From the human T2T-CHM13v2.0 reference genome, Homo sapiens, in the NCBI RefSeq assembly GCF_009914755.1, contig NC_060941.1: a stretch of DNA of 64,000 nt. One strand, written 5' to 3'. Each line of letters begins with the position of its first letter. Positions within the stretch are counted from its first letter, which is position 1. Made by a program: the position numbers and the translations under genes. This document shows, in pieces, positions 17,501 through 42,343 of the stretch. The notes beneath the pieces were generated by a model. It was not told the DNA's origin and ran no database searches. It worked only from the letters and a program-made list of their open reading frames with translations.

Positions 17501-18439
17501 AGGGTGATTCTGGTGAGGGCTCCAAAGAGGAGACTTGGACAGAATGTTGGTAGATAAATGTGTCAGTGGAAACCAGAGGGTAGACAGGACTCCATCCATG
17601 CCCAGGGCTTTCTGGGGACAGACCTGTCCAAGCAGCAACCATTCCCAACCGAGTTCTGTTTCTGGAAAGCCAGGCAACAGGTGGGGCTGGGCCCTCTGGG
17701 ATTTGTTTAGTGACCCGATTATGTGGGAGGCCTGCAGTGGGTGGTTGGGTGGGGGGTGGTACCAATGCCATCATGCCCAACCTCATTGCATCACTCACTT
17801 CCCAGGCCCTGCCCTCAACCCCTCCTGACCAGGCCCTGTCCTGGTTCTCAGCCACCTTGTCCCAGTGGGTGCTTCAGCCCACTCACTGACCAAGTGAGGG
17901 ACTGACTCCAGGTTACAAAGTGCTGTGTTTATGTGACCTGAGAATACGTGTGCGCAGAGTGTTCCCACAGTGTCCTTGTAAAGTTGAGCATGTACATGTC
18001 CTGCCAGTGTGTAGGCAGCCTGTCCACACATGCCTAGGAGTGTGACTCCATGTCCTGGTAGATGGGGAAGGAGAGAGGGAGTTGTGCCCAGGGTCCCCCG
18101 ATTACTTCTATGGGTGCATGTTTGTGCTTCTTGTTAGGGGTGCTTGGGGAAGATTCTGCCCTGGGTGCCCTGGATCACCTGTGTGTGTGTGTGTGTGTGC
18201 ACGCGGGGACGCGCACGTGCATTAGGGGGTGTACTGTGTTACAGCATCCTCAACCAACTCTGTATGTGTGCATATGTTTGTGTGTGTGTGTCCTACAGGT
18301 GTGAGCGAGTGGATGCTTCCACTACGTGTCTGCACATGTGTGTGTGCACTTGCATTGTCCTTGCACACCTGCGTGTGTCCCGTGAGAGCGGAGCCCAGCA
18401 TGTGCTGGCACCTGCAGGAACATGTGAGTGTGCGTTCTG

Positions 18440-19560
18440 TGGGTCCCTGTCCTGATGGCTCTCCACTTGTCCCGAGTGTCACGACGACGAGGATGGGGAC
18501 CATATCTTCGGAGCCTGAGGATCCAACACAGGTCCAGCCCTGTGCAGCCGCCCGCCAAGCCGCCAGAGGACGAGCCGGACGCCGAAGGCTACGAGTGGAC
18601 GATTGCAGTTAGTTTCCAACTCGCCGACTTCGCGCCCCTCCACTGGCTCCGGCTTGATGATCCCGGCTTCGGGGTGCTCTCGGTCCCTCCCCATCGCGTC
18701 GTCGCTTTCTCCCTTGGCATAACCCCCAGCCGCGGGGCCGCAGACCCTAAGAGCTCCATGAGCTCTCCGCGCCCTGCCCACCGGCCCCGGCCCCGACCCC
18801 TCCCCAGACCGGACCAGAGAGGTGGGAAGTTTGGGGGCACCCGCTGTGGGTGTCCCGTTTCCGGGGCTGGGCTCCGGGGAGCCGGCGCGGCGCCCGCTCC
18901 CTGCCCGCCAGCCCTTTGGGAGCTCAGGCGCGGGCAGCCGCTTGTGTTCCTGGGAAGGGCGGAGCTGCGTCCCGGGGAGACACGCCTTGCAGCCGGCAGC
19001 CTAGTCGCTCCCCGCTGGCCGGCCGCTCCGTGAGGGCCCCGCAGCGGAGGGTCGGGGCTGGGGCGGGCTGGAGAGGGGGCCCCGGGCTGGGGCCGGTTCG
19101 GCCTCCCGGGTGGCGCGCGGGCCGAAGAACTAGGAGGACCGCCGGGCCGGGCCGCTTGTCCTTTGGAAAAACCTTGGCGGTTCCTCCTCTGGTGTCCGTG
19201 GACCCCGCCGTGGCGTTCTCCAGGGCCGCGGACCTTTGCCCACCGGTCGCGCCAGCTGTCCTGGAGCAGAAAGGACCCCCCTCCTCCCGGACCGAGCCCC
19301 GAGCCCCGAGCCCCATGGAGCAGGCAAGCGCCGGAGTCCCGAGGCTAAGGCCCGGCCGGCGGGCGCTCTGGCACCTTTTCCCGCCCCCGAGGGTGCCTGT
19401 CCGGCCCGGCCGGGACTGGCTGGGAAACCGAGGCCGGAAGAGGTCGCAGTCCAGCAAGGAATCGGTTTGTGTGGGGTGGGGGTGGGATGGGAGACCCCTC
19501 CCCAACCCCACCAGCCCCAGCCCAGCTGTGGCCCCCGCCGTGTCACTCAGAAAACCAGCG
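18440..19560. promoter_or_regulatory. CpG island about 6-7 kb upstream of the TBC1D3 5'UTR exon
   Basis: Very GC-rich with dense CpG, and GC boxes (gggcgg). Boundaries approximate. Confidence 0.8.
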
Positions 19561-20221
19561 TCAAACCCCAGCCCTGCCTGGGATGTGGACCTTGCCTGGG
19601 GAGAGTCCCGTTCAGGCTTTTCCAGGGCCTCTCCCCTGAGCAACAGGGGTGTCTGCGCTGGGCCTGGGCACTCACCAGGGCCTGCAGGCTGCCAGTCTGG
19701 AGTTTCCCTAGCATCAAATGTGCCACCGGAAGCTGAAGGTGGGGATGACCAGTGCCCCCCGGAGCGAAGACCCCCCCATCTCTCCAGGATTGGGGGTCTG
19801 CTTAGGGGTCCACTTAGGGGTGTATCCCTCAGGCATTGGAAGTGCAGATGGGAGGCCCTGAGCCATGGTGGCTCCCCCAGTCCCCAGTTCTTTCTCTGTG
19901 TAAATCCAGCTTTGCAGGGACGGGGATGTGGTGCATTTCCCGGAAGAGCCGGGGTCCTGGGGCGTGGGGAGCTGGGGCTGGGTCGTGGGGAGCTGGGACT
20001 GGGGTGTGGGGAGGGGCCCAGGGTGAGCAAGCTGAAGCAGGACTGGCACAGGCCTCTGGAGGGCCTGGGGGAGGCTGGACGCCCCGGGGTGCACCCTTGC
20101 TTGTGCACTCTTCTAAGGGTCAGTCTCAGTTTGCCCATCTGTAAATAGGGTTGATTGTCCCTGCCCTACGTGGCTGTTGTGAGCATTCAATGAGCACTAC
20201 CAGTCCTGGGAGACTCTTGGT

Positions 20222-20480
20222 GTTTTTTATTGTGCTAAAATACACAAATATAAATTTCCCATTTCAACCATTTCTTTTTGCTCCTTCACTCCCCACCCAC
20301 CCACCCATTTTTACCGTATAGTTCAGTCGTGCTCAGTACCTTCTACCTTCACGCTGTGTGCAACCCATCTCCAGAAGCCTCTTCATCCTGCAAAATTGAA
20401 ACTGGACCCATTAAACAACACCTCCCCATTCCTCCTCCCCCGGCCCCTGGCAACTGCCATTCTGCTTCTTTCTCCACATA
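20222..20480 (-). mobile_element. L1M 3'-end fragment (duplicate at about 33760-34020)
   Basis: ttattgtgctaaaatacac...cccattaaacaacacctccccattcc...cccctggcaactgccattctg. Confidence 0.65.
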
Positions 20481-20622
20481 TGGAATATATTCTATATACC
20501 TAGTTTTACATTAAGATCATAGATAGCTTTGTTTTCAGTATGTATATCTACTTTATTCTTTTCAGTAATTTCATGTTTATTATGTGGCTGTACCATCATG
20601 GTTTAAACTATCCATATTTTAA

Positions 20623-21044
<422 letters not shown>

Positions 21045-21329
21045 TGAAATAGATTCCTAGAAATAAGATAGACTGAAGAGTATGTAAATTTTAAATTTTT
21101 TTACAGACTGTGTCATTGCTTTTTAAAAATGCTGATTACCAAAATGTCACTTTTTGATACTAAAAAATAGATTGTTTTAAACACACAAAGTAAGTAGGGC
21201 TTATCAAAAAGTTAATATATTTTGCATTTCTCACAAGTGTGTTGAATTTCTCCCCCTTGCATTGTACAGCAGGAATCCTGACTCAGTCTAACTTTCTTAT
21301 ACTTAAAAAAGTATATACTAAAACATAGG

Positions 21330-21550
21330 CCAGGAGTTAGCAAATGTTTTCTATAAAAGACCAGATAGTAAATATTGTTCTTTGTGGGCTATATAATCTC
21401 TGTTGCAACAATGTGACTCCACCTTTGTCTTGGAAAGCTGGGATAGATAATATATAAAAGAGTGGGAGTGGCTGTGTTTCAACAAAACTTTGTTTACAAA
21501 ACAGGGGTCATACTAGATTTGTTCTGAGGACCATAGTTTCTTAACCTCAG
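21330..21550 (+). mobile_element. MER58A-like hAT fossil (duplicate at about 34870-35090)
   Basis: caggagttagcaaatgttttctataaaagaccagatagtaaatatt...aaactttgtttacaaaaacagg. Confidence 0.65.
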
Positions 21551-21737
21551 TCTAGGCAATCCATCAAGTAATTCTGCATTCACGATAGAAGTCTTATTGT
21601 ATATATTGGCTGACTGTCTTTCCTTTCTCTAATGTTAACCACTGATTTTGTGGAGCATGGATTCTAGGGAAATAATACCCAGGTAAGATGTCTATTACCA
21701 TGTGTGTCTTATTTTTGAAAGAGTGGTTAAATTCTTA

Positions 21738-22529
<792 letters not shown>

Positions 22530-22859
22530 TTAACTCTCTGAGCCAACATTTCCTCTTCTGTTAAATGGGAATATTAATAATACTTAGCCCTTGGAGACAC
22601 TGTTAGAATTTGAAGCACAATGAATAATTTTTAAGAGAGCTTGACTCATGAGAAAAATAAGCTTAAATGCATGAATATATATATCAAGCATGAATTTACC
22701 TAGTGCATATGCATTATACACTGGGTGCATAATACTTTATAAAATAATCATTGTTTTAAAAAATAGAGTTTCATTATTTGGGGAGAGGCATTACCGTCAT
22801 TTCCTTTCTGCTGACTTCCCCTCTTCAGAGTTTTCTGCTCTTCCCCTCCCATCCCACCA

Positions 22860-23964
22860 CCTTGCTTTGTCACAAAACAAAGCCAATAGGATCACCAACA
22901 GTTTAAGACTGGTTTACTCAAAACGAATTCATTGTTTTACATAGCTGAACACAGAAATGATAAATAATGTTCTATAAATATTTGTTGGTTGACAGCTTTG
23001 GAACAATGTCCTCTAGAAAAAGCTGAACGTAGCCACCCACCTTGTACGAGAGCCGCAAAGAATAGCCATGTGCCTGAATATGTGTCAGCCGCTGTGTGAC
23101 TGGAGGGGCTGAGGAAGGGGCGTAGAGGGTGTTGTGAGGTCCCTTCCGACAAGCAGTCAAGAACGCATAGAAATACATTACAAAAATTAAATAGATAAGT
23201 TGAAATGCATGTTAAGAAGAGCCCCAGAGTGTGGTTGCTTGGGTAGGGGTAGGTTCAGGAATTGAAGGGACGTCCCTAGGGCCTGGGTCCCTGCCTCCTA
23301 ATTTGCCACAAATGTAACAGTGTCTTGTTGCTTCCAGGTCACTCAGGGATTCGACTCTGAGGTCAGTGATGCACTTGGCACCAGAACTCGATGGGGTTGG
23401 CACAGACCTGCCAGCCTCAGCCACTTTCATTCTGGAAGCTGTTAAAAGAGACAGTTATAAAAATTGAGGAATCAGCAAGAGAATTCCTGGTTCCGTGCTA
23501 CCTTCTTCTCTCTGTCTTGGCAAGTGTAGGGCCTGTCCACTTGCTCAGGACTCTTTGTCCAACCTCAGCTCCCTAGACCTTTCATCAGTGGCTCAGGGGG
23601 TCTCTTCAGGCAGCCTCTTCCGGCTAACACTTCCTCCTGTCTTCCCTCTGTCAGGGGCAGCTCTTCCGTGGTTCCTTGCAGACCCCAGGTCAGGCCAGAA
23701 AACACCTCTATGGCCCTTCCCTGTGTCCCACCACCAGATAGGACCTCAAAGGCCTGGGGTCCCCAGGATGGCCCTCAAACCGACTGGTGCCCTTGCAGGC
23801 TGCCACCCTCCAAGTCCTGCTTCTCTCTAGAGATGGGCAGGAGCACCAGCCCTCACCTGGCACCAGCAGTGAGTCTCATAATTGCCATCTACCATTTTGC
23901 TAGGGGGCTTCTGGGGATCCTAGGAAAAGCAGCAGATGCCTGGGTGCTTGGGGACCTGGGCATT
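22860..23964 (-). pseudogene. Decayed CCL3/MIP-1alpha-like CC-chemokine gene relic, copy 1 (exon 2 at 23857-23964, exon 3 at 23343-23438, 3'UTR to about 22860)
   Basis: Exon 2 reads ...HPGICCFS*DPQKPPSKMVDGNYETHCWCQ|gtgag, with the CC-x22-C spacing of CCL3L. The intron is 418 nt (CCL3L 421 nt) and alignable. Exon 3 reads acag|C FQNESG*GWQVCANPIEFW... ITDL...AATCCCTGA. The 3'UTR aligns to the CCL3L AU-rich element. Confidence 0.85.
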
Positions 23965-26900
23965 CTGAGGGAAGGAGCAGCGTGACCCTGAGTCATTTTT
24001 CACTGGGGACAAATGAGCCAACTCCTTCTACCCAGTGATAAAATCAGAAGGAAGCAGATGGAGACAGCACTGTTCAGGGGATGATTTGGGGATGAGAAGA
24101 ACTGGCAGGAAGTTGGGGATGTGGGGGTGAGAAGAACCAGCAGGAAGTTGGGGATTTCTTGTTTCCCCACTTTTCCCTTCCATTTCTGTTTGAGCCTTAG
24201 GTTTGGCCTCCGTCTCCCTCTGTAGGAATTGCAGCTAATTAAATATTCTGCCTCTTATTCCAGCTTTACTGGGGGAACATAATATGGTCTAAGAAGAGAT
24301 TTTTCCAGCAAGAGGCCATCTCTGCAAATCACCTGTGAGGCAGACCTGTGGCAATTTTATGACTCAGCTGGCCACCGGGATTGTAGCTGGGTTCTGCCGC
24401 TTGTTGAAACCTACTCAATGTTCTCCTTCCCTAAGTAGGACAAGACCGTATCCTGCCTTTAAGGTTTATAGAATAAAAACTGAAAACTCTTTGGGGAAGA
24501 AAATCTTCCTGAACAGATAGCCCAGGGCATTTTGAAAATCCCTTAGGAAGTTCTCTGTTTCACTTGGGTACCTTTGTCCTTGGACTTTGGTGATGTGGTT
24601 TGACCCCAGCTAGAGAGTGAGGGGAACAACAGCAAAAGGCAGGACAAAGACTGACTCGTGAGAGGAGGCCCAGGAACAGGGGGCCATTGTGAATGAGGAG
24701 GACGTGGGGGCCCAAGAAAGTGAGCAAAAGAGGACAGGGCTTGCGCACTCAGTCACCAGCCCCCTTCTGGGGTCCAAGCTGTGTCCCCTTCTCTAAAGAG
24801 GTAAGCCCTGAGTCATGGGAAGATGGAAACCGGGGCTCATGAGACAGGATGTTTTTTAAGCACCGTGGTGTCTTGTTGACTTGCACATGCACGGGGGTCT
24901 TGGGTAACCACAGGGCTCAGGGTATTTGCAGGAACAGTTCAAGTGCTCACTTGTCTTGGGGCTGTTTATGGGGAAGTGGTTTCCACAGTGAGAGGAGGTG
25001 AGATATTGTTGTCACCCCGGACGACACTTAGCTAGTTCCTTCTCACTAAAGCTCTGTAGTCATATTTTCCCTGGCAGAGCAGAAACTTCTATGTTATCCC
25101 ACAGCTGTTCTAACGGTGTAGACTTGACTTATGCAATGATGCCAGGAGTCCTGAGCAGCACAGCCCAACTTCAATCACACACAGATGGACAGAGCTGTAT
25201 TAGCAAAGCCTGAGCTACTGAGCGATGAGAGTACAGCCAGGCTTTCAGACATCTGTTCATTCAAGAGAGATATGCGCTAAGCCAAGGACCTAAAGATGTG
25301 TTTAATATGGGTGCTAATATGCATAAGGAACCTTGAAATAAATGTTCTTAGCCTTTGGCCAAGAGGGTCCATGTCTAGGAATCTATTCTCCATAGAAATA
25401 AATTCAAATATGGAAAAAATGAACAATGCATAAGTGTATTTGGTCCCCAGCATATTTATAGCAACTTAAAATTGGACCCAATTTAAATGCCTATGATATG
25501 GAAATGGCTAAGAAAATTATGGGATCTTCCCTTGATTGGCTATTAGGCAGCCTTTACAAACAATGCAGTGACATGAGAAATGCTTATGTTATGGTAAGCT
25601 TAAAAAACTCAAGATGCAAATCAGCTTATTTTAATCAGGAGCCACCTAGCATTTGGGATGTGGTCAATCCCACATAATGTATTTTTGTGGGTGCAGTTCC
25701 CAGGAAAGAGGAGGAATAAAAACGGCAAGTATGAAGTGTCTCCTTCGCTTGCAGTCTCCTTGTCTACCCCTTTGTCCATCCACTATGAAAGGACTCCCTT
25801 CTGTTCCTTAATATGGACAATTTCTATTGAGGACTCATTGTTCTAAGAATTGTCTCATCTCCTCCTGCATCCTCAGTGCCCGATCTTTGGCTTCTATGAA
25901 GGAAGGTGGGTAGTGCGTATGGCAGGTCCAGTTCTACCTTTCTTAGTATGTTCTGGCGTGGGTATGTAGCCCCATTTTCTAGTGGTTACCTTGACATCAT
26001 GAAGAGTTTATGTCTCTTTTGCCCTAGGTTTGGGCAATAGTCATTCACTGTGCAACAGGAAATACACGAGTCAGCATCTTATTAAAAATAAAGTCATTCA
26101 GGAAAGTGGACGACTAATAGTTTCTAATCTAGAGAGCATAGGAGAAGAAATGTTTACCACACACAAAGTATTAGTGCCTTTTATATCACGAAAACAAAAA
26201 TAACAGGAAAAAGACAAACACATTATAGTGAAAACTTGTTTTTCCTAACCAGCATCTATTCTGCATGTTTCCTGATGCCCGAAACTCACATTTCCTCAGG
26301 AAAATCTCCCTTCTGCACCATTCTCAGGCTTTAAGTTTATGTAAAATTCAGTAAACCCAAAGATTCAAGTTATGTGCCTTGATTAACTTAAGCAAATCAA
26401 TGAAACCCATCCCCATAACCACAGCGACAGGTTAGGAAATTCGGTTCCTAAGTCAGTCACATCCGAAAGGGCCTAGTGATGTTTTTTTCCAGTGGGATCA
26501 CAGACTCACTCTTCCTTGCAGAAAATGAACAAAGGATTCATGTAACACTGGCAGGTACTGGCAGCCACCCAGGGCCTCTCACAGGAAAGGGAGATCAGAA
26601 AGAGAAGCAAAGAGGACTCATGAGATACCATAGGGCTGCTGCGTCCAGCCTTGCCTGGAGCTAGGGCCACCTCGATGCCCTATAGTCTTGGAGCCACAAC
26701 GTGCATTTACTCAAAGCCTCTTTGAGTTTGGTTTGCTTGTTTGCTTTCTGCCTGGAAACTGCCAGCATCCTGAGAGATACGAGATCTGCATCTGTGCAGA
26801 GACACAGGGTTTGTTAAAAGTCACAGGCCCTGACTGAAGTGTGGAACTGGCTGAAATGAGAAAGTGGTAATTTGGGGAGGACCTTGTGAAATGGAAGGAG

Positions 26901-27186
26901 TTTTAAACCTTACATGCATCAGAATTACCTGGAGCCTTGTGAAAACACAGGTTGCTGGGCCCTAGTCCATTAAGAAAGGAAGTGGGGCTTAGAATGTTCA
27001 TTTCTCCCATGTTCCCAGGTGATATTCACCATGCTGTCCTGTCTGGACACTACCTTTTGCCATACCCATTACAAGGTATTGCACGTGCTGGTTGAACTAT
27101 GGTCTGTCTTATTTTGGTGCTAAAAGCCTGTGCCAAATACCAACGCTGCAGCATTAAGGAATGTGATAGAAAAGATTCTGAATATA

Positions 27187-27517
<331 letters not shown>

Positions 27518-27865
27518 CTATGTATTACATCAGTAAGGTCCTTTAAGAAAGAGTTTAGGCTGCTTTGAAATGGGCTCATCTGAAATTGAAAAAGGAAGAA
27601 ATTGAACTTGCTAAAAAAGGCCCTTCCAACTTATTGACTGAGAACCCAGTAATCTGGAGACTTGAAGGGCTGTAATGGCAGAATTTTCTACTCTAAGATA
27701 AAGTTAGCATGAGCAGAGACAGGAAGATGAGAGACCTAATGAGGCCAAGGGTCAAATATTCATCACCTCCACATGGGCCAAGATGCAGGCAGAGGTCTCT
27801 CACCAGGGACTTGGTGGTAGAGGTGACACTGGTAGTGAGGTCTGTGCTAGAAAGTGCACATCCCT

Positions 27866-28382
<517 letters not shown>

Positions 28383-28758
28383 TCAGGCTAACTCACACAG
28401 ACAGGAAGTCAGCAGCCTCCAGAAAGCAGATCCTCCACATTGCACATCTCAGATTGTCCGTGGAGGACATTCCCCCAGGGAGGAGAGCTAGGGACTGCCA
28501 GATCAGCTGAACTGCTTAAAAATGCAATTCCCATTCTCCAGTTCCCTAACAGGAGTCTGTGTTTAACTTACTCTGTTTGTTCATAACGCTTGTATTTAGG
28601 GAATATTGGGCATGATTAAACTTTGTTTAGCTTTGGGTTTCTGGACCTTGTGAAACAATTCAGTGCAGGCAAATATTGTATGCCCCTATATTTTTTTCCT
28701 GAAAGTCAATAAAGAAGGAATGATGACACCTTCACTGCATCTATGGGGACAAAAGCTG

Positions 28759-28761
<3 letters not shown>

Positions 28762-28800
<39 letters not shown>
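28762..28800. repeat. (GT)n microsatellite, 6 nt shorter in copy 2 (about 42306-42338)
   Basis: Direct reading. Confidence 0.95.
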
Positions 28801-28805
<5 letters not shown>

Positions 28806-31142
28806 GAGAGACAGAGAACAGCCTTGTCAAAAGGATGTGTTTGTTGCTGTACCCTCATTATACGAAAGCCATCATGGCATCAAAATGCTGTAAGCCAGGC
28901 TGAGCTCTATTCTCTCTGCATCAACTCAGAATCCCTACCAGAAAGTGGTTGTGATGGATGGAATATCACCCATCAAAGAACAGGGTAAGATGAGACCAGA
29001 GAGGTAAGCTATGCAAGCTAATCAGAAAATAACTCAAAGTTTTAAAAGTGCAGAATATAAAAAGGAAAAACCCTCATTCCTAAAAAAATTTAAAAAAAGC
29101 CTCATTTCCTCAAAGAAACGACAGTTAGCTATTTGATGTGTGTCTTTCCAAATATTTGCCTATGTAAATATATGTGTGTATATGGCTTTTAAAAATAAAA
29201 ACAAAATAATATCCTTTACAGACAGTTTTGTAGCATATGTAGAGAATATATATGCATATACTGAATGTAAATAGATATGCATTTTACCTAGAATATTACG
29301 GACACTTTCCACAGTTATAGATGTGTGCTGCTTTTGTTTACTGACTGCAGAATATTCCATTGATGGACATCTTAATCCTCTACTTATTAATCCCCTACTG
29401 ATGACTGTTTGCATTTCTTTGCTCTTTACCAACCATACTTGAAAGAATATCCTCATGTCTACATATTCTTATCTTTTGGCAGTGTTTCTATGAAGCAGAT
29501 TCCTAGAAATGGGATCAGGTCAAATGGGATGTAGGTCACATAGTATGTGCATTTTAATATCTGCTAAGTAGTAGTGTTTAATTATGCTTTAAAGAGTTTG
29601 AGCCCTACAATTCTAAACATGTTTGGACACAGAAATTAGATTATTTTAAACAAAATGAAATAAGCATAGCTCATAAAAATTAACACGTTTGGTTTTCACA
29701 CAAATATTTTGAATTTCCCTTTCTTCTGCAAAAAGGACCCTAGCTTAGTATGCATTTCTTGTACATATAATGCAAGCAATCCATCTATTAAATAACTTAC
29801 CTTTCAAACCTATAGACAGCATCCTGCTCCACACAGAAGCTGGTTGTCTTTTCATTCTCTAACATTAGCTATTTATTTTGTAGAGTGTAGATTCTAGAGA
29901 AATAATGTATAATACACCTGTTGCCATATGCAGAGACTTACCACATTTAGAAAACAGTGGTGAATTCTATTGACAGTGGCTCTCAGTCATTAACATGCTA
30001 TGGAACACCTCATGAGCTTGATAAAAATATCAGTTCCCAGGTCTACACCTAAAGATCCTGATGTAATTGGCTTAAATAATCACTGCTGAAACACTCTATG
30101 TCAACTCAGAATCCTGACAGGAAGTGGTTGCAATGGATAAAGTATCATCTGTTAAAGAATGGGGTAAGATTTGAGTATAGGCGGGTCATACTTTGGGAAA
30201 TAACTTGGTCAATGGTTAACAGCATAGTCTGTAGTTCAATAAAAGTCCAGTTTTGGAACACAATTGACCTTTTACATGCTGTGTAACCTCAGCCAAGTTG
30301 TCTAACCTTTCTGAGCCCTGGGTTACTTTTCTGTCAAGTGGAGGTATTAATAGTACCTAAGCTGTACTATTGCATTGGTAAGATTAAATGAACAATGTAT
30401 AAAAAGCACTCAGTAGGAGTAAGCCTCAACAATGTAAGTAATTGCTATTAAGAGCTTGATTCATCATGAATATGCCCTACAGAATACTCTGCTTAATGGT
30501 GTCCATTCAAGTAGTTAATTCTCCTAGAGCGTGCATATTACGATTTGAGTTATAACATATTCGTAGTTTCAATGTTCCAGAACTTTGTGAAGTGGATAAC
30601 TCTGTCGTAGCGCTCCCCATCTCTCCCAATTTCCCTCCATTTCACCTCTTCCTAATCTTTGCCTATGATTCCTCTTAACCAGTGATTTTGATTTGCCAGA
30701 AAAACAAAACCAAACTCAATACTGGTTTACCGTTTAAAAGAACATCTTTATTATTTCCCCAGGCCGATCACAGCCCTGAACAAAAGCATCTGATACACAT
30801 TTGTCAGTCTGGTGGCTTTGGTGCCATGACTGCCTACACAGGCCGATGACAGCCACTCGGTTGTCACCAGACACACTGTGAGGGAAGGTGGAGGGGACAG
30901 GGGGAACTCTCAGAGCAAACAATCACAAACACACTGTGAAATCAAAAATAAATTATAAAAACTAAATAGTATAAATAAATTAAAATTTAAGTTAAGAAGA
31001 GTCCCACAGTGTGGCTGTTTGGCAATAACCAGTCCATAGAAGAGGTAGCTGTGGAGGTCACACGCATGTTCCCAAGGCTCAGGCTCCTGCTCCTCCCCAC
31101 TGGGCCCACTGAGGTCGCTGGGCCTCGAAGCTTCTGGACCCC

Positions 31143-31769
31143 TCAGGCACTCGGCTCCAGGTCACTGACGTATTTCTGGACCCACTCCTCACTGGGGTCA
31201 GCACAGACCTGCCGGCCTCTCTTGGTTAGGAGGCTGTGGAGAAGGGAGGAAGAGTTAAGCACTGGGGAATCCAGCCGGGGAATCCTGGGCCCACCATGGC
31301 CCTGACATCCTGCTCTCTGTCCTGGGCAGCTCAAGGCCTGCTCCTCTCTCAGGGGCCCCCTGCCTATCTCCGTCTAGAGAGCTTCTCTCAGTGACTCCAG
31401 GCAAGGGGGCCCTCAGAGTGTCCTGCTGCCTCCTTCTTCCTGTTCCTTTCCTCTGGCCTGGGGCAGCCCTTCCTGACTCTGTAACACCCACCTCACTCCA
31501 GCCCCAAGTCAGGTCACACCTCAGTGCCCTGCGTCCTGTATCCCCGATAGGCTCCTGAAGGCTGGGCCTTTCCAGGATGGCCTTCTGGCCTGTTTCTGCC
31601 CCCACCCTGACACTCCCTACCTCCCTAGAGGTGAGCAGGAAGACTGGCACTTACATGACACTGGGCTTGGAGCACTGGCTGCTCGTCTCAAAGTAGTCAG
31701 CTATGAAATTCTGTGGAATCTGCCGGGAGGTGTAGCTGAAGCAGCAGGCGGTCGGCGTGTCAGCAGCAA
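31143..31769 (-). pseudogene. CCL3P1: 5'-truncated CCL3L copy (CCL3L2 / LD78gamma), exons 2-3 only
   Basis: Exon 2 at 31655-31769 ([12 protein letters not shown]...KPSV) and exon 3 at 31143-31233 ([29 protein letters not shown]). Poly-A signal at 30747-30752. Exon 1 and the promoter are absent because the duplication junction lies 26 nt upstream of exon 2, inside intron 1. Confidence 0.92.
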
Positions 31770-31979
31770 CTGCGGAGAAAGGAGAGAATAAGCCCAACTC
31801 TGTATGTGTGCATATGTTTGTGTGTGTGTGTCCTACAGGTGTGAGCGAGTGGATGCTTCCACTACGTGTCTGCACATGTGTGTGTGCACTTGCATTGTCC
31901 TTGCACACCTGCGTGTGTCCCGTGAGAGCGGAGCCCAGCATGTGCTGGCACCTGCAGGAACATGTGAGTGTGCGTTCTG

Positions 31980-33100
31980 TGGGTCCCTGTCCTGATGGCT
32001 CTCCACTTGTCCCGAGTGTCACGACGACGAGGATGGGGACCATATCTTCGGAGCCTGAGGATCCAACACAGGTCCAGCCCTGTGCAGCCGCCCGCCAAGC
32101 CGCCAGAGGACGAGCCGGACGCCGAAGGCTACGAGTGGACGATTGCAGTTAGTTTCCAACTCGCCGACTTCGCGCCCCTCCACTGGCTCCGGCTTGATGA
32201 TCCCGGCTTCGGGGTGCTCTCGGTCCCTCCCCATCGCGTCGTCGCTTTCTCCCTTGGCATAACCCCCAGCCGCGGGGCCGCAGACCCTAAGAGCTCCATG
32301 AGCTCTCCGCGCCCTGCCCACCGGCCCCGGCCCCGACCCCTCCCCAGACCGGACCAGAGAGGTGGGAAGTTTGGGGGCACCCGCTGTGGGTGTCCCGTTT
32401 CCGGGGCTGGGCTCCGGGGAGCCGGCGCGGCGCCCGCTCCCTGCCCGCCAGCCCTTTGGGAGCTCAGGCGCGGGCAGCCGCTTGTGTTCCTGGGAAGGGC
32501 GGAGCTGCGTCCCGGGGAGACACGCCTTGCAGCCGGCAGCCTAGTCGCTCCCCGCTGGCCGGCCGCTCCGTGAGGGCCCCGCAGCGGAGGGTCGGGGCTG
32601 GGGCGGGCTGGAGAGGGGGCCCCGGGCTGGGGCCGGTTCGGCCTCCCGGGTGGCGCGCGGGCCGAAGAACTAGGAGGACCGCCGGGCCGGGCCGCTTGTC
32701 CTTTGGAAAAACCTTGGCGGTTCCTCCTCTGGTGTCCGTGGACCCCGCCGTGGCGTTCTCCAGGGCCGCGGACCTTTGCCCACCGGTCGCGCCAGCTGTC
32801 CTGGAGCAGAAAGGACCCCCCTCCTCCCGGACCGAGCCCCGAGCCCCGAGCCCCATGGAGCAGGCAAGCGCCGGAGTCCCGAGGCTAAGGCCCGGCCGGC
32901 GGGCGCTCTGGCACCTTTTCCCGCCCCCGAGGGTGCCTGTCCGGCCCGGCCGGGACTGGCTGGGAAACCGAGGCCGGAAGAGGTCGCAGTCCAGCAAGGA
33001 ATCGGTTTGTGTGGGGTGGGGGTGGGATGGGAGACCCCTCCCCAACCCCACCAGCCCCAGCCCAGCTGTGGCCCCCGCCGTGTCACTCAGAAAACCAGCG
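31980..33100. promoter_or_regulatory. Duplicated CpG island, now directly upstream of the truncated CCL3L copy
   Basis: Copy of 18440-19560 starting about 200 bp from the exon 2 acceptor at 31770. Confidence 0.8.
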
Positions 33101-34161
33101 TCAAACCCCAGCCCTGCCTGGGATGTGGACCTTGCCTGGGGAGAGTCCCGTTCAGGCTTTTCCAGGGCCTCTCCCCTGAGCAACAGGGGTGTCTGCGCTG
33201 GGCCTGGGCACTCACCAGGGCCTGCAGGCTGCCAGTCTGGAGTTTCCCTAGCATCAAATGTGCCACCGGAAGCTGAAGGTGGGGATGACCAGTGCCCCCC
33301 GGAGCGAAGACCCCCCATCTCTCCAGGATTGGGGGTCTGCTTAGGGGTCCACTTAGGGGTGTATCCCTCAGGCATTGGAAGTGCAGATGGGAGGCCCTGA
33401 GCCATGGTGGCTCCCCCAGTCCCCAGTTCTTTCTCTGTGTAAATCCAGCTTTGCAGGGACGGGGATGTGGTGCATTTCCCGGAAGAGCCGGGGTCCTGGG
33501 GCGTGGGGAGCTGGGGCTGGGTCGTGGGGAGCTGGGACTGGGGTGTGGGGAGGGGCCCAGGGTGAGCAAGCTGAAGCAGGACTGGCACAGGCCTCTGGAG
33601 GGCCTGGGGGAGGCTGGACGCCCCGGGGTGCACCCTTGCTTGTGCACTCTTCTAAGGGTCAGTCTCAGTTTGCCCATCTGTAAATAGGGTTGATTGTCCC
33701 TGCCCTACGTGGCTGTTGTGAGCATTCAATGAGCACTACCAGTCCTGGGAGACTCTTGGTGTTTTTTATTGTGCTAAAATACACAAATATAAATTTCCCA
33801 TTTCAACCATTTCTTTTTGCTCCTTCACTCCCCACCCACCCACCCATTTTTACCGTATAGTTCAGTCGTGCTCAGTACCTTCTACCTTCACGCTGTGTGC
33901 AACCCATCTCCAGAAGCCTCTTCATCCTGCAAAATTGAAACTGGACCCATTAAACAACACCTCCCCATTCCTCCTCCCCCGGCCCCTGGCAACTGCCATT
34001 CTGCTTCTTTCTCCACATATGGAATATATTCTATATACCTAGTTTTACATTAAGATCATAGATAGCTTTGTTTTCAGTATGTATATCTACTTTATTCTTT
34101 TCAGTAATTTCATGTTTATTATGTGGCTGTACCATCATGGTTTAAACTATCCATATTTTAA

Positions 34162-34583
<422 letters not shown>

Positions 34584-35276
34584 TGAAATAGATTCCTAGA
34601 AATAAGATAGACTGAAGAGTATGTAAATTTTAAATTTTTTTACAGACTGTGTCATTGCTTTTTAAAAATGCTGATTACCAAAATGTCACTTTTTGATACT
34701 AAAAAATAGATTGTTTTAAACACACAAAGTAAGTAGGGCTTATCAAAAAGTTAATATATTTTGCATTTCTCACAAGTGTGTTGAATTTCTCCCCCTTGCA
34801 TTGTACAGCAGGAATCCTGACTCAGTCTAACTTTCTTATACTTAAAAAAGTATATACTAAAACATAGGCCAGGAGTTAGCAAACGTTTTCTATAAAAGAC
34901 CAGATAGTAAATATTGTTCTTTGTGGGCTATATAATCTCTGTTGCAACAATGTGACTCCACCTTTGTCTTGGAAAGCTGGGATAGATAATATATAAAAGA
35001 GTGGGAGTGGCTGTGTTTCAACAAAACTTTGTTTACAAAACAGGGGTCATACTAGATTTGTTCTGAGGACCATAGTTTCTTAACCTCAGTCTAGGCAATC
35101 CATCAAGTAATTCTGCATTCACGATAGAAGTCTTATTGTATATATTGGCTGACTGTCTTTCCTTTCTCTAATGTTAACCACTGATTTTGTGGAGCATGGA
35201 TTCTAGGGAAATAATACCCAGGTAAGATGTCTATTACCATGTGTGTCTTATTTTTGAAAGAGTGGTTAAATTCTTA

Positions 35277-35570
<294 letters not shown>

Positions 35571-35625
35571 TCAAAACAAAACAAAACAAACACACAAACA
35601 AAAAACTGGGAGACCGAGGTGGTCA

Positions 35626-35900
<275 letters not shown>

Positions 35901-36399
35901 TTAGTCTGCATGTGTATCACTTGGGGGTTTGGTAAAAATCTAGATTCCCGCATCCAAACCCAGTTCTCTTGTGAGCATTTTAAATGACCATCCCAGGTGG
36001 TTCTGGAATGCTCATAGGATTGCATATTAGTTACACTATTTATTCGCTGCATGGCCATGGACAAGTTGTTTTAACTCTCTGAGCCAACATTTCCTCTTCT
36101 GTTAAATGGGAATATTAATAATACTTAGCCCTTGGAGACACTGTTAGAATTTGAAGCACAATGAATAATTTTTAAGAGAGCTTGACTCATGAGAAAAATA
36201 AGCTTAAATGCATGAATATATATATCAAGCATGAATTTACCTAGTGCATATGCATTATACACTGGGTGCATAATACTTTATAAAATAATCATTGTTTTAA
36301 AAAATAGAGTTTCATTATTTGGGGAGAGGCATTACCGTCATTTCCTTTCTGCTGACTTCCCCTCTTCAGAGTTTTCTGCTCTTCCCCTCCCATCCCACC

Positions 36400-37505
36400 A
36401 CCTTGCTTTGTCACAAAACAAAGCCAATAGGATCACCAACAGTTTAAGACTGGTTTACTCAAAACGAATTCATTGTTTTACATAGCTGAACACAGAAATG
36501 ATAAATAATGTTCTATAAATATTTGTTGGTTGACAGCTTTGGAACAATGTCCTCTAGAAAAAGCTGAACGTAGCCACCCACCTTGTACGAGAGCCGCAAA
36601 GAATAGCCATGTGCCTGAATATGTGTCAGCCGCTGTGTGACTGGAGGGGCTGAGGAAGGGGCGTAGAGGGTGTTGTGAGGTCCCTTCCGACAAGCAGTCA
36701 AGAACGCATAGAAATACATTACAAAAATTAAATAGATAAGTTGAAATGCATGTTAAGAAGAGCCCCAGAGTGTGGTTGCTTGGGTAGGGGTAGGTTCAGG
36801 AATTGAAGGGACGTCCCTAGGGCCTGGGTCCCTGCCTCCTAATTTGCCACAAATGTAACAGTGTCTTGTTGCTTCCAGGTCACTCAGGGATTCGACTCTG
36901 AGGTCAGTGATGCACTTGGCACCAGAACTCGATGGGGTTGGCACAGACCTGCCAGCCTCAGCCACTTTCATTCTGGAAGCTGTTAAAAGAGACAGTTATA
37001 AAAATTGAGGAATCAGCAAGAGAATTCCTGGTTCCGTGCTACCTTCTTCTCTCTGTCTTGGCAAGTGTCGGGCCTGTCCACTTGCTCAGGACTCTTTGTC
37101 CAACCTCAGCTCCCTAGACCTTTCATCAGTGGCTCAGGGGGTCTCTTCAGGCAGCCTCTTCCGGCTAACACTTCCTCCTGTCTTCCCTCTGTCAGGGGCA
37201 GCTCTTCCGTGGTTCCTTGCAGACCCCAGGTCAGGCCAGAAAACACCTCTATGGCCCTTCCCTGTGTCCCACCACCAGATAGGACCTCAAAGGCCTGGGG
37301 TCCCCAGGATGGCCCTCAAACCGACTGGTGCCCTTGCAGGCTGCCACCCTCCAAGTCCTGCTTCTCTCTAGAGATGGGCAGGAGCACCAGCCCTCACCTG
37401 GCACCAGCAGTGAGTCTCATAATTGCCATCTACCATTTTGCTAGGGGGCTTCTGGGGATCCTAGGAAAAGCAGCAGATGCCTGGGTGCTTGGGGACCTGG
37501 GCATT
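36400..37505 (-). pseudogene. Decayed CCL3-like CC-chemokine relic, copy 2 (exon 2 at 37398-37505, exon 3 at 36884-36979)
   Basis: Duplicate of 22860-23964 at offset 13541. Confidence 0.85.
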
Positions 37506-40500
37506 CTGAGGGAAGGAGCAGCGTGACCCTGAGTCATTTTTCACTGGGGACAAGTGAGCCAACTCCTTCTACCCAGTGATAAAATCAGAAGGAAGCAGAT
37601 GGAGACAGCACTGTTCAGGGGATGATTTGGGGATGAGAAGAACTGGCAGGAAGTTGGGGATGTGGGGGTGAGAAGAACCAGCAGGAAGTTGGGGATTTCT
37701 TGTTTCCCCACTTTTCCCTTCCATTTCTGTTTGAGCCTTAGGTTTGGCCTCCGTCTCCCTCTGTAGGAATTGCAGCTAATTAAATATTCTGCCTCTTATT
37801 CCAGCTTTACTGGTGGAACATAATATGGTCTAAGAAGAGATTTTTCCAGCAAGAGGCCATCTCTGCAAATCACCTGTGAGGCAGACCTGTGGCAATTTTA
37901 TGACTCAGCTGGCCACCGGGATTGTAGCTGGGTTCTGCCGCTTGTTGAAACCTACTCAGTGTTCTCCTTCCCTAAGTAGGACAAGACCGTATCCTGCCTT
38001 TAAGGTTTATAGAATAAAAACTGAAAACTCTTTGGGGAAGAAAATCTTCCTGAACAGATAGCCCAGGGCATTTTGAAAATCCCTTAGGAAGTTCTCTGTT
38101 TCACTTGGGTACCTTTGTCCTTGGACTTTGGTGATGTGGTTTGACCCCAGCTAGAGAGTGAGGGGAACAACAGCAAAAGGCAGGACAAAGACTGACTCGT
38201 GAGAGGAGGCCCGGGAACAGGGGGCCATTGTGAATGAGGAGGACGTGGGGGCCCAAGAAAGTGAGCAAAAGAGGACAGGGCTTGCGCACTCAGTCACCAG
38301 CCCCCTTCTGGGGTCCAAGCTGTGTCCCCTTCTCTAAAGAGGTAAGCCCTGAGTCATGGGAAGATGGAAACCGGGGCTGATGAGACAGGATGTTTTTTAA
38401 GCACCGTGGTGTCTTGTTGACTTGCACATGCACGGGGGTCTTGGGTAACCACAGGGCTCAGGGTATTTGCAGGAACAGTTCAAGTGCTCACTTGTCTTGG
38501 GGCTGTTTATGGGGAAGTGGTTTCCACAGTGAGAGGACGTAAGATATTGTTGTCACCCCGGACCACACTTAGCTAGTTCCTTCTCACTAAAGCTCTGTAG
38601 TCATATTTTCCCTGGCAGAGCAGAAACTTCTATGTTATCCCACAGCTGTTCTAACGGTGTAGACTTGACTTATGCAATGATGCCAGGAGTCCTGAGCAGC
38701 ACAGCCCAACTTCAATCACACACAGATGGACAGAGCTGTATTAGCAAAGCCTGAGCTACTGAGCGATGAGAGTACAGCCAGGCTTTCAGACATCTGTTCA
38801 TTCAAGAGAGATATGCGCTAAGCCAAGGACCTAAAGATGTGTTTAATGTGGGTGCTAATATGCATAAGGAACCTTGAAATAAATGTTCTTAGCCTTTGGC
38901 CAAGAGGGTCCATGTCTAGGAATCTATTCTCCATAGAAATAAATTCAAATATGGAAAAAATGAACAATGCATAAGTGTATTTGGTCCCCAGCATATTTAT
39001 AGCAACTTAAAATTGGACCCAATTTAAATGCCTATGATATGGAAATTGCTGAGAAAATTATGGGCTCTTCCCTTAATTGGCTATTAGGCAGCCTTTACAA
39101 ACAATGCAGTGACATGAGAAATGCTTATGTTATGGTAAGTTTAAAAAACTCAAGATGCAAATCAGCTTATTTTAATCAGGAGCCACCTAGCATTTGGGAT
39201 GTGGTCAATCCCACATAATGTATTTTTGTGGATGCAGTTCCCAGGAAAGAAGAGGAATAAAAACGGCAAGTATGAAGTGTCTCCTTCGCTTGCAGTCTCC
39301 TTGTCTACCCCTTTGTCCATCCACTATGAAAGGACTCCCTTCTGTTCCTTAATATGGACAATTTCTATTGAGGACTCATTGTTCTAAGAATTGTCTCATC
39401 TCCTCCTGCATCCTCAGTGCCCGATCTTTGGCTTCTATGAAGGAAGGTGGGTAGTGCTTATGGCAGGGCCAGTTCTACCTTTCTCAGTATGTTCTGGCCT
39501 GGGTATGTAGCCCCATTTTCTAGTGGTTACCTTGACATCATGAAGAGTTTATGTCTCTTTTGCCCTAGATTTGGGCAATAGTCATTCATTGGGCAACAGG
39601 AAATAACACAAGTCAGCATCTCATTAAAAATAAAGTCATTCAGGAAAGTGGACGACTAATAGTTTCTAATCTAGAGAGCATAGGAGAAGAAATGTTTACC
39701 ACACACAAAGTATTAGTGCCTTTTATATCACGAAGACAAAAATAACAGGAAAAAGACAAACACATTATAGTGAAAACTTGTTTTTCCTAACCAGCATCTA
39801 TTCTGCATGTTTCCTGATGCCCGAAACTCACATTTCCTCAGGAAAATCTCCCTTCTGCACCATTCTCAGGCTTTAAGTTTATGTAAAATTCAGTAAACCC
39901 AAAGATTCAAGTTATGTGCCTTGATTAACTTAAGCAAATCAATGAAACCCATCCCCATAACCACAGCGACAGGTTAGGAAATTCGGTTCCTAAGTCAGTC
40001 ACATCCGAAAGGGCCTAGTGATGTTTTTTTCCAGTGGGATCACAGACTCACTCTTCCTTGCAGAAAATGAACAAAGGATTCATGTAACACTGGCAGGTAC
40101 TGGCAGCCACCCAGGGCCTCTCACAGGAAAGGGAGATCAGAAAGAGAAGCAAAGAGGACTCATGAGATACCATAGGGCTGCTGCGTCCAGCCTTGCCTGG
40201 AGCTAGGGCCACCTCGATGCCCTATAGTCTTGGAGCCACAACGTGCATTTACTCAAAGCCTCTTTGAGTTTGGTTTGCTTGTTTGCTTTCTGCCTGGAAA
40301 CTGCCAGCATCCTGAGAGATACGAGATCTGCATCTGTGCAGAGACACAGGGTTTGTTAAAAGTCACAGGCCCTGACTGAAGTGTGGAACTGGCTGAAATG
40401 AGAAAGTGGTAATTTGGGGAGGACCTTGTGAAATGGAAGGAGTTTTAAACCTTACATGCATCAGAATTACCTGGAGCCTTGTGAAAACACAGGTTGCTGG

Positions 40501-40822
40501 GCCCTAGTCCATTAAGAAAGGAAGTGGGGCTTAGAATGTTCATTTCTCCCATGTTCCCAGGTGATATTCACCATGCTGTCCTGTCTGGGCACTACCTTTT
40601 GCCATACCCATTACAAGGTATTGCACGTGCTGGTTGAACTATGGTCTGTCTTATTTTGGTGCTAAAAGCCTGTGCCAAATACCAACGCTGCAGCATTAAG
40701 GAATGTGATAGAAAAGATTCTGAATATAGGCCAGGCGCAGTGGCTCACGCCTGTAATCCCAGCACTTTGGGAGGCCGAGGCAGGCAGATCACGAGGTCAG
40801 GAGATCAAGACCATCCTGGCTA

Positions 40823-41053
<231 letters not shown>

Positions 41054-41487
41054 TTAGTAGCTATGTATTACATCAGTAAGGTCCTTTAAGAAAGAGTTTA
41101 GGCTGCTTTGAAATGGGCTCATCTGAAATTGAAAAAGGAAGAAATTGAACTTGCTAAAAAAGGCCCTTCCAACTTATTGACTGAGAACCCAGTAATCTGG
41201 AGACTTGAAGGGCTGTAATGGCAGAATTTTCTACTCTAAGATAAAGTTAGCATGAGCAGAGACAGGAAGATGAGAGACCTAATGAGGCCAAGGGTCAAAT
41301 ATTCATCACCTCCACATGGGCCAAGATGCAGGCAGAGGTCTCTCACCAGGGACTTGGTGGTAGAGGTGACACTGGTAGTGAGGTCTGTGCTAGAAAGTGC
41401 ACATCCCTGGCTGGGCGCGGTGGCTCACACCTGTAATCCCAGCACTTTGGGAGGCTGAGGCAGGTGGATCACGAGGTCATGAGTTCA

Positions 41488-41751
<264 letters not shown>

Positions 41752-42302: not shown

Positions 42303-42343
<41 letters not shown>

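What the first reader, a model, noticed from the sequence alone, without database searches (positions are those of the whole stretch)
22860..23990. Hidden fossil CC-chemokine gene (MIP-1alpha-like) downstream of CCL3L
Seen in sequence, minus strand. An exon at 23857-23964 (ccctcag| ... |gtgag) encodes HPGI-CC-FS*DPQKPPSKMVDGNYETHCW-C. Against CCL3L ([25 protein letters not shown]), the Pro at +9, Glu-Thr at +18/19 and Cys at +23 fall in identical register, and the Tyr codon has become TAG (23920-23922). The 418-nt intron (CCL3L: 421) is alignable: ctctctagagatgggcaggagcaccagccctcac vs ctccctagaggtgagcaggaagactggcacttac. Exon 3 (23343-23438) gives FQNESG*GWQVCANPIEFW..ITDL..AATCCCTGA vs [21 protein letters not shown]. 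The 3'UTR keeps gttaagaagagccccagagtgtgg (CCL3L gttaagaagagtcccacagtgtgg) next to a decayed AU-rich element. Inference: an ancient tandem CCL3 paralogue, long dead (stops, indels, loss of the SKPSVI segment), carried along with the CCL3L duplicon. It is far more diverged than CCL3L2 and absent from the ORF track. I do not know of an annotation for it but cannot exclude one. It fits the established origin of CCL18 from fused CCL3-like genes.
Basis: partly seen in the sequence, partly recalled or inferred. Interest (0 to 1): 0.85.

Follow-up and report, generated by a model that had tools for sequence, protein, structure and literature searches.

The report
Old dead CCL3-like chemokine gene copy
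This stretch is the decayed remains of an ancient duplicate of the chemokine gene CCL3, copied along with the CCL3L gene block; it is real, but a pseudogene at this position was already reported in print.

Summary
Window 22860-23990 (minus strand) holds exon 2, a 418-nt intron, exon 3 and the 3'UTR of a CC-chemokine gene. They are collinear with CCL3L1 (61.8% over 748 columns, E 3e-40; best of 30 shuffles 32.6 bits against 156).

The relic is larger than reported. A decayed exon 1 and promoter lie at 24510-24925, and matching downstream flank reaches 21027.

It occurs twice in the window. The second copy is at 34566-38466, because 18254-31795 and 31794-45336 are a 99.6% tandem duplication.

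It is dead:
- the start codon region is deleted;
- there is a TAG in exon 2 and a TGA in exon 3;
- there are frameshifts;
- the TATA box and poly(A) signal are lost.

The genome holds four copies. The parental one (94% identical, same lesions) lies between CCL18 and CCL3. A 2013 paper places a "CCL3-ps" on each side of CCL18, citing Nomiyama et al. 2003. I could not read the 2003 paper.

The relic is about equally distant (about 60-62%) from CCL3, the CCL18 3' unit and the other CCL3-ps. It therefore belongs to the same old CCL3-like burst.

Interest is low.

The parts
24756..24925 (-). Copy 1: promoter relic. It matches the CCL3L1 promoter 46144-46310 at 66.5%. The TATA box has decayed; a conserved CCTGAGCCC..TGTGGT box is kept.
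24510..24704 (-). Copy 1: relic of exon 1 and the start of intron 1. It matches CCL3L1 45854-46045 at 63.4%. A gap of about 44 nt in the alignment removes the position of the start codon.
23965..24509 (-). Copy 1: remainder of the intron 1 equivalent. It aligns poorly with CCL3L1. In the parental copy this stretch aligns with an inverted CCL3-like fragment inside CCL18 intron 1.
23857..23964 (-). Copy 1: exon 2 relic. It has the CC motif and the third Cys in register, a TAG at 23920-23922, and a 14-nt deletion at its 3' end.
23439..23856 (-). Copy 1: intron 2 equivalent, 418 nt. Aligned columns are 69% identical to CCL3L1 intron 2 (421 nt).
23343..23438 (-). Copy 1: relic of the coding part of exon 3. 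It has a 6-nt insertion with an in-frame TGA (23417-23419), the VCANP fourth Cys, and a 2-nt deletion. Its terminal TGA aligns with the CCL3L1 stop.
22880..23342 (-). Copy 1: 3'UTR equivalent. It has 3 ATTTA motifs against 4 in CCL3L1, and no AATAAA at the aligned poly(A) position.
21027..21741 (-). Copy 1: homologous downstream flank. 21027-21308 matches 43010-43308 and 21556-21741 matches 43314-43511. In the 204 kb searched these two segments matched only the CCL3 and CCL3L downstream flanks. An Alu-rich masked block (21735-22337) and a repeat-like segment (22498-22627) lie between this flank and the UTR.
34566..38466 (-). Copy 2 of the whole relic, offset +13541: exon 3 at 36884-36979 and exon 2 at 37398-37505. 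It has 6 differences from copy 1 in 2101 nt. This is the copy that lies downstream of CCL3L1.
37196..37409 (+). Exon 2 of lncRNA LOC124905374 (NR_185320.1), antisense to intron 2 and the exon 2 end of relic copy 2, with canonical ag/gt splice sites. The same acceptor (23655) is used by the predicted LOC124905373 in copy 1.
   Evidence: hub annotation table
37805..38030 (+). Exon 3 of lncRNA LOC124905374, antisense inside the intron 1 equivalent of relic copy 2.
   Evidence: hub annotation table

Best explanation
This is an old, unprocessed (DNA-duplicated) pseudogene of the CCL3-like (MIP-1alpha-like) chemokine lineage. It is a complete gene relic: promoter, exon 1, intron 1, exon 2, intron 2, exon 3, 3'UTR and about 1.3 kb of downstream flank.

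Proposed history:
1. It arose by tandem duplication of a CCL3-like gene. This belongs to the same old burst that produced the two progenitors of CCL18 and the other CCL3 pseudogene (inferred from similar distances and the trees).
2. It lost function through deletion of the start codon region, stop codons, frameshifts and loss of the TATA and poly(A) signals (shown).
3. It lay about 6-10 kb downstream of CCL3, between CCL18 and CCL3 (shown for the parental copy).
4. It was later copied passively when the CCL3-CCL4 block was segmentally duplicated to give the CCL3L-CCL4L units (shown: 94% identity to the parental copy, with shared lesions).
5. It was copied once more by the 13.55-kb tandem duplication that also made the truncated CCL3P1 (shown).

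It encodes no chemokine. Its only visible present use is that its antisense strand supplies two spliced exons of an annotated lncRNA (annotation; function not shown).
For: Collinear DNA homology to CCL3L1:
- The main match is 61.8% over 748 columns, E 2.6e-40. Separate matches cover exon 1, the promoter and two flank segments.
- Controls: best of 30 shuffles 32.6 bits against 156; reversed subject no better than E 1.4.

Protein level:
- tblastn with the window's own CCL3L1 and CCL4L1 proteins gives the two relic exons as the best hits after the true genes (E 0.009-0.085 each, in the right order and on the right strand).
- 11 of 11 PDB sequences matched by the exon 2 translation at E up to 10 are CC chemokines: CCL14, CCL4, CCL3 and CCL23.

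CCL3 lineage:
- CCL3L1 and CCL4L1 align only in exons 2 and 3 under the same settings.
- The relic has no non-coding match to CCL16, CCL14, CCL15 or CCL23.
- Its exon 3 stop aligns with that of CCL3L1.

Age: K2P distance is 0.41 over 981 aligned non-coding sites. ML path length to CCL3 is 0.76, against 0.05 between the parental and duplicon copies.

Genome copies: 4 of 4 matches lie in the CCL3 and CCL3L loci of chr17. The parental copy lies at C17:37028236-37030756, between CCL18 (exon 3 at 37018858-37018941) and CCL3 (exon 3 at 37036561-37036647).

Shared lesions: exon 2 differs from the parental copy by 1 substitution and exon 3 by 6, with no indels.

Against: - Pfam IL8 (PF00048) matched neither relic exon translation at E up to 10. 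The CCL3L1 exon controls scored E about 1e-8.
- The exon 3 translation found no chemokine in the PDB: 4 hits, none a chemokine.
- At protein level exon 2 scores best against CCL14 and CCL4, not CCL3. In its ungapped core it is as far from CCL3L1 (43 of 75) as from CCL4L1 (45 of 75). The CCL3 assignment therefore rests on non-coding DNA and exon 3.
- One flank match (22498-22627) is repeat-like. It also hits six unrelated places and looks like a MIR element by my recall, so it does not count as collinear evidence.
- The trees are nearly star-like. The 3' half places the relic only weakly (70/76), and the 5' half gives 92/91 with an inverted fragment in CCL18 intron 1.
- The link to the published CCL3-ps rests on position only. 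I could not read the 2003 paper or see Figure 4.
Confidence: 0.92

Rival explanations
1. Chance resemblance: short cysteine-containing motifs and AT-rich strings that only look like a chemokine gene.
For: The single-exon protein matches are weak (tblastn E 0.009-0.085). Pfam IL8 found nothing. The exon 3 translation found no chemokine in the PDB.
Against: blastn E is 2.6e-40 over 748 columns, with three further collinear matches. Thirty shuffles reached at most 32.6 bits against 156. Four other CCL3-like units elsewhere on chr17 also match.
Confidence: 0.01
2. A processed (retrotransposed) pseudogene or a transposon-derived segment.
For: None found. One flank segment (22498-22627) is repeat-like.
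Against: Both introns are kept at the same places, and intron 2 is 418 nt against 421 nt. Promoter and downstream flank are homologous too. Only 4 matches exist in the 3.1-Gb genome, all in the CCL3 and CCL3L loci. The hub's table lists no masked stretch of 100 nt or more between 22338 and 27178.
Confidence: 0.01
3. A relic of another chemokine lineage of the cluster, rather than a CCL3-like duplicate: either the CCL14/CCL15/CCL23 group or a partial copy of CCL18 itself.
For: The best PDB match of the exon 2 translation is CCL14 (E 0.005), with a shared HP just before the CC pair. Distances to the CCL18 3' unit (61.9% over 641) and to CCL3 (61.9% over 750) are equal.
Against: The relic has no DNA match to the CCL16, CCL14, CCL15 or CCL23 genes in the 70 kb that holds them. 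CCL18 did not appear among the 11 PDB hits. In the 3' tree the CCL18 3' unit joins CCL3 (84/85) and the relic stays outside. The relic is oriented opposite to CCL18 and is a whole gene, not a piece of it.
Confidence: 0.04
4. The relic is not merely junk. It is kept because its DNA now serves as exons of an antisense lncRNA (a CCL3-AS1-like transcript) or as a regulatory element for CCL3 or CCL3L.
For: The curated lncRNA NR_185320.1 has two exons with canonical splice sites inside copy 2, on the opposite strand (hub table). A promoter box is kept at about 19 of 21 positions within a 66% identical surrounding.
Against: No test of function or constraint was possible. The duplicon-to-parental divergence across the relic is about 94% identity, close to the published 92.9% identity of the whole CCL3 and CCL3L1 genes, so I see no sign of extra conservation. 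RefSeq lists no functional element here (hub table).
Confidence: 0.12

Closest known systems
Human 'CCL3-ps' between CCL18 and CCL3 (Nomiyama, Egami, Tanase et al. 2003, J Interferon Cytokine Res 23:37, as cited in the Figure 4 legend of Shibata et al. 2013, PMC3749542)
   Same: The parental copy of this relic is the only CCL3-like sequence I find between CCL18 and CCL3. The window copies are 94% identical to it and carry the same lesions.
   Different: The window holds duplicon copies, two of the three in this genome, not the parental locus. I could not see whether the papers mark those copies. RefSeq annotates none of them here (hub table). The 2003 paper was not readable.
CCL3P1 (formerly CCL3L2, LD78gamma), window 30726-31788
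   Same: It is also a non-functional CCL3-family member inside the CCL3L duplicon, and also unprocessed.
   Different: CCL3P1 is young. It is part of the 99.6% tandem duplicate of CCL3L1 and is truncated at a breakpoint 26 nt upstream of exon 2. The relic is about 62% identical to CCL3L1 and is a complete but decayed gene.
[quoted passage not shown] 1999, known to me from citations in PMC3749542 and PMC7663205)
   Same: Its two units (5': C17:37012025-37013050; 3': 37017253-37019614) are CCL3-like duplicates about as far from CCL3 as the relic is, at roughly 60-62%.
   Different: CCL18 is on the opposite strand, fused and functional. In the 3' tree its 3' unit is nearer to CCL3 than the relic is (84/85).
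CCL3L1 / CCL3
   Same: The gene plan, intron positions and lengths, promoter box, stop position and 3'UTR motif are the same.
   Different: The relic has no start codon, two in-frame stops, two frameshifts, loss of the SKPSV strand codons, and no TATA box or poly(A) signal.

Membership tests
CC chemokine gene (Pfam IL8, PF00048) | An adjacent CC pair, plus the third and fourth cysteines in register | tested here: met
   The CC pair and the Cys at +23 are in ungapped register with CCL3L1 and CCL4L1. The VCANP cysteine in exon 3 aligns with VCADP.
CC chemokine gene (Pfam IL8, PF00048) | A match to the Pfam IL8 profile | tested here: not met
   0 families for either relic exon translation at E up to 10. 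The CCL3L1 exons 2 and 3, used as controls, scored E 9.8e-09 and 6.6e-09. The exons were tested singly, not joined.
CC chemokine gene (Pfam IL8, PF00048) | Sequence similarity to solved chemokines | tested here: inconclusive
   Exon 2: 11 of 11 hits are CC chemokines, best E 0.005. Exon 3: 0 of 4 hits are chemokines.
CC chemokine gene (Pfam IL8, PF00048) | An open reading frame with a start codon and signal peptide | tested here: not met
   TAG in exon 2 and TGA in exon 3. The ATG region is deleted. There is a 14-nt and a 2-nt frameshift.
CCL3-like unprocessed duplicates of the CCL18-CCL3 neighbourhood | Collinear homology to CCL3/CCL3L1 through introns, UTR, promoter and flank | tested here: met
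   CCL3L1 against CCL4L1 aligns in exons only.
CCL3-like unprocessed duplicates of the CCL18-CCL3 neighbourhood | The parental copy lies between CCL18 and CCL3, the position of the published CCL3-ps | tested here: met
   C17:37028236-37030756, between CCL18 exon 3 (37018858-37018941) and CCL3 exon 3 (37036561-37036647).
CCL3-like unprocessed duplicates of the CCL18-CCL3 neighbourhood | Sequence identity with the CCL3-ps described in 2003 | not testable with these tools
   The paper is not held, and figures are not held.
Processed pseudogene | Introns absent, poly(A) tail present, no promoter homology | tested here: not met
   Both introns and the promoter are retained.
Interspersed repeat | Many dispersed copies in the genome | tested here: not met
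   4 candidates, 4 scored, all in the CCL3 and CCL3L loci. The tool says its counts are lower bounds.

The most novel reading that the evidence does not exclude
The relic was not dead on arrival. It may be the remains of a separate, once-functional MIP-1-type chemokine born in the same burst as the CCL18 progenitors.

Its receptor-facing exon 2 has drifted as far from CCL3 as CCL4 has: 43 of 75 positions match CCL3L1, against 69% identity in intron 2. An orthologue may still be intact in some non-primate mammals. In primates its antisense strand has been taken over as lncRNA exons.
Probability: 0.15. Interest if true: 0.35.

Novelty: already known. Interest (0 to 1): 0.15.

Why it matters
The practical importance is small.

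- Locus history. Together with the other units seen here, the relic shows that the CCL18-CCL3 neighbourhood holds at least seven CCL3-like units. That helps reconstruct how CCL18 arose.
- Extent of the duplicon. The relic shows that the CCL3L duplicon reaches at least 10 kb downstream of CCL3.
- Assay design. CCL3L copy-number assays and read mapping should take account of three near-identical copies and one 94% copy of this relic on chr17.
- Annotation. RefSeq on T2T-CHM13 leaves the relic unmarked and instead places a predicted protein-coding model (LOC124905373) across it on the other strand. That model looks doubtful.

Tried and rejected
- Pfam IL8 on single relic exons found nothing. The first attempt failed on a frame error in a control, which I corrected.
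- A PDB sequence search with the exon 3 translation found no chemokine.
- Papers not held: Nomiyama 2003, Zlotnik 2006, Colobran 2010 and Schutyser 2005. Searches were term-format errors.
- Nothing on this relic was found in: the 2013 classification paper, the CCL3L alignment paper, the 2023 review, the gene-cluster paper, or a phrase search for CCL3 pseudogene terms (32 papers, 25 listed).
- anchored CCL3L1 on the wrong TGCTGC, so its numbers are void. One search replaces them.
- One search's ungapped mismatch count for 21027-24925 (885) is an artefact of an indel between the copies. One search gives 6 differences in 2101 nt.
- The flank match 22498-22627 was first counted as collinear. I then set it aside as repeat-like.
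- Exon 2 being more diverged than intron 2 (binomial p 0.02) is not used as evidence of selection. The intron identity comes from a local alignment and is biased upward.
- Dating gave 94-206 My from K2P 0.41. The ML path of 0.76 would give more. I treat this only as 'well before the CCL3L duplication, probably before the primate radiation'.
Full report
**1. Observation**

On the minus strand, window 23857-23964 translates to a CC-chemokine exon 2 with an in-frame TAG at 23920-23922. After the CC pair it runs in ungapped register with CCL3L1 and CCL4L1 as far as the third cysteine.

The intron that follows is 418 nt, against 421 nt in CCL3L1. Exon 3, read from 23437, holds an in-frame TGA, the VCANP cysteine and a 2-nt deletion. 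Its last TGA aligns with the CCL3L1 stop.

With blastn (match 1, mismatch -1), 23171-23863 aligns with CCL3L1 44487-45202 at 61.8% over 748 columns, E 2.6e-40. Thirty local-composition shuffles of the CCL3L1 locus gave at most 32.6 bits, against real scores of 156, 56.8, 51.1 and 48.3. A reversed subject gave nothing better than E 1.4.

**2. Extent and copy number**

- 24510-24704 aligns with the CCL3L1 exon 1 and intron 1 junction (E 1e-7).
- 24756-24925 aligns with the CCL3L1 promoter (E 3e-10).
- In that alignment a gap of about 44 nt removes the place of the start codon, and the TATA box is decayed. A promoter box (CCTGAGCCC..TGTGGT) is nearly intact.

Downstream:
- 21556-21741 and 21027-21308 align with 43314-43511 and 43010-43308. 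In the 204 kb I searched they match nothing but the CCL3 and CCL3L flanks.
- A third flank match (22498-22627) also hits six unrelated places and looks like a MIR element by my recall. I do not count it.

The window holds a 13.55-kb tandem duplication, 18254-31795 and 31794-45336, at 99.6% identity. The whole relic therefore occurs twice. Copy 2 is at 34566-38466, with exon 3 at 36884-36979 and exon 2 at 37398-37505. It differs from copy 1 at 6 of 2101 positions. Copy 1 lies downstream of CCL3P1 and copy 2 downstream of CCL3L1.

**3. What it is**

Both introns, the promoter and the flank are retained, so this is a DNA-level duplicate and not a retrocopy.

It is not a repeat family. The 3.1-Gb genome gives 4 matches (4 candidates, 4 scored), all on chr17 in the CCL3 and CCL3L loci.

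The evidence for the CCL3 lineage:
- Under identical settings CCL3L1 and CCL4L1 align only in exon 2 (169 nt) and exon 3 (98 nt), whereas the relic aligns with CCL3L1 through non-coding DNA.
- In the 70 kb that holds CCL16, CCL14, CCL15 and CCL23, the relic has no match to those genes.

The evidence that weakens a simple CCL3 label:
- At protein level the exon 2 translation scores best with CCL14 (E 0.005), then CCL4, then CCL3. All 11 of 11 PDB matches are CC chemokines.
- In the 75-nt exon 2 core the relic matches CCL3L1 at 43 positions and CCL4L1 at 45, while those two genes match each other at 53.
- Pfam IL8 finds neither exon, although the controls are positive.
- The exon 3 translation finds no chemokine in the PDB: 0 of 4 hits.

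**4. Parental copy and relatives**

The fourth genomic match, 95% identical, is at C17:37028909-37029733. I fetched C17:36995001-37065000 and located genes with the window's own CCL3L1 and CCL4L1 proteins. The order along the chromosome is:

| Unit | Strand | Place on C17 |
|---|---|---|
| CCL3-like pseudogene | - | 37005358-37005956 |
| CCL18, with pseudo-exons in its first intron | + | exon 1 at 37012247, exon 3 to 37018941 |
| The relic (same TAG) | - | exon 2 at 37029603-37029686 |
| CCL3 | - | 37036561-37037944 |
| CCL4 | + | 37051821-37053224 |

Window 22096-25300 is 93.9% identical to C17:37027813-37031043. For comparison, PMC2851716 gives 92.9% identity for the whole CCL3 and CCL3L1 genes.

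The parental exon 2 differs from the window copy by 1 substitution and exon 3 by 6, with no indels. The gene was therefore dead before the CCL3L duplicon formed.

The relic aligns at about 60-62% with four other units:
- CCL3;
- the CCL18 3' unit;
- the left pseudogene;
- an inverted 5' fragment inside CCL18 intron 1 (37013691-37014573).

The trees (7 and 8 rows, GTR+F+G4) are close to a star:
- In the 3' half, rooted on CCL4, the CCL18 3' unit joins CCL3 (84/85). The relic stays outside, weakly joined to the left pseudogene (70/76).
- In the 5' half the relic joins the inverted fragment (92/91).

Non-coding K2P distance to CCL3L1 is 0.41 over 981 sites. The ML path is 0.76, against 0.05 between parental and duplicon copies. 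The duplication is thus many times older than the CCL3L duplicon. I give no firmer date.

**5. What is in print**

Shibata et al. 2013 (PMC3749542; passages and figure legends seen, figure not seen) write that CCL3 has been duplicated repeatedly, and that most species, including human, carry functional or inactivated CCL3 copies. They state that CCL18 may come from the fusion of two such copies. [quoted passage not shown] 2003.

My map gives exactly one CCL3-like element on each side of CCL18 within about 12 kb. The one on the CCL3 side is the parent of this relic. The 2003 paper is not held, so the match rests on position.

I found no mention of the relic in these searches and papers:
- a phrase search for CCL3 pseudogene terms;
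- a search on CCL3L1, CCL3L2, segmental duplication, CCL18 and TBC1D3;
- the papers read.

RefSeq on this assembly annotates no pseudogene here (hub table).

**6. How it works**

It does not work as a chemokine gene. The lesions are:
- the start codon region is deleted;
- TAG in exon 2;
- a 14-nt deletion of the SKPSV codons;
- a 6-nt insertion carrying a TGA;
- a 2-nt frameshift in exon 3;
- a decayed TATA box;
- no AATAAA at the aligned site.

On the opposite strand, the curated lncRNA NR_185320.1 uses two exons with canonical splice sites inside copy 2 (37196-37409 and 37805-38030). The predicted coding model LOC124905373 uses the same acceptor in copy 1. Whether that transcript has a function is unknown.

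**7. Verdict**

It is an already described kind of object, and its parental member appears to be in print since 2003. Interest is low.

Noticed in passing
window 18254-31795 and 31794-45336: A 13.55-kb tandem duplication at 99.6% identity. Its proximal breakpoint (45336) lies 26 nt upstream of CCL3L1 exon 2, which explains why CCL3P1 lacks exon 1.
   Followed up: partly
window 18455-19464 and 23655-23741 (+), LOC124905373: The predicted 323-aa protein is rich in Arg, Pro, Gly and Ala (46 R, 45 P, 38 G, 34 A). It reads through a CpG-island-like stretch (18254-19500: GC 0.63-0.74, CpG observed/expected about 0.75). Its last coding exon is antisense inside the relic's intron 2. It shares an exon boundary and an acceptor with the lncRNA LOC124905374 of the other duplicate. 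It looks like a doubtful coding model.
   Followed up: partly
own genome C17:37013691-37014573 (-), locus L006: An inverted CCL3-like 5' fragment (promoter, exon 1, intron 1) lies inside CCL18 intron 1. It is 60.2% identical over 923 columns to the relic's 5' half (E 2e-31), and 60.9% over 512 columns to CCL3. It groups with the relic at 92/91. I do not know whether it is described.
   Followed up: partly
own genome C17:36988400-36989604 (-), locus L018: A further, more decayed CCL3-like 3' relic (intron 2, exon 3, UTR) lies between CCL23 and the left CCL3 pseudogene. It matches the CCL18 3' unit (59.5% over 560 columns, E 6e-20), the relic (E 2e-13) and CCL3 (E 5e-10). tblastn did not detect it at E 0.01.
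   Followed up: partly
own genome C17:37036546-37037202 against 36931693-36932375: CCL3 aligns with CCL14 through intron 2 (58.6% over 707 columns, E 5e-16). CCL3L1 and CCL4L1 align only in exons under the same settings. This is odd for genes usually regarded as a close pair.
   Followed up: no
window 24880-24900 (-) and CCL3L1 46270-46290 (-): The best-kept promoter stretch contains TGTGGT. By my recall this is a RUNX-type site reported for the CCL3 promoter. The name comes from memory and was not tested here.
   Followed up: no
window 22498-22627 and 43809-43940: Both the relic and CCL3L1 have a MIR-like element (my recall of the MIR core) at the same relative place downstream of the gene and in the same orientation. 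It may predate the duplication or be a coincidence.
   Followed up: partly
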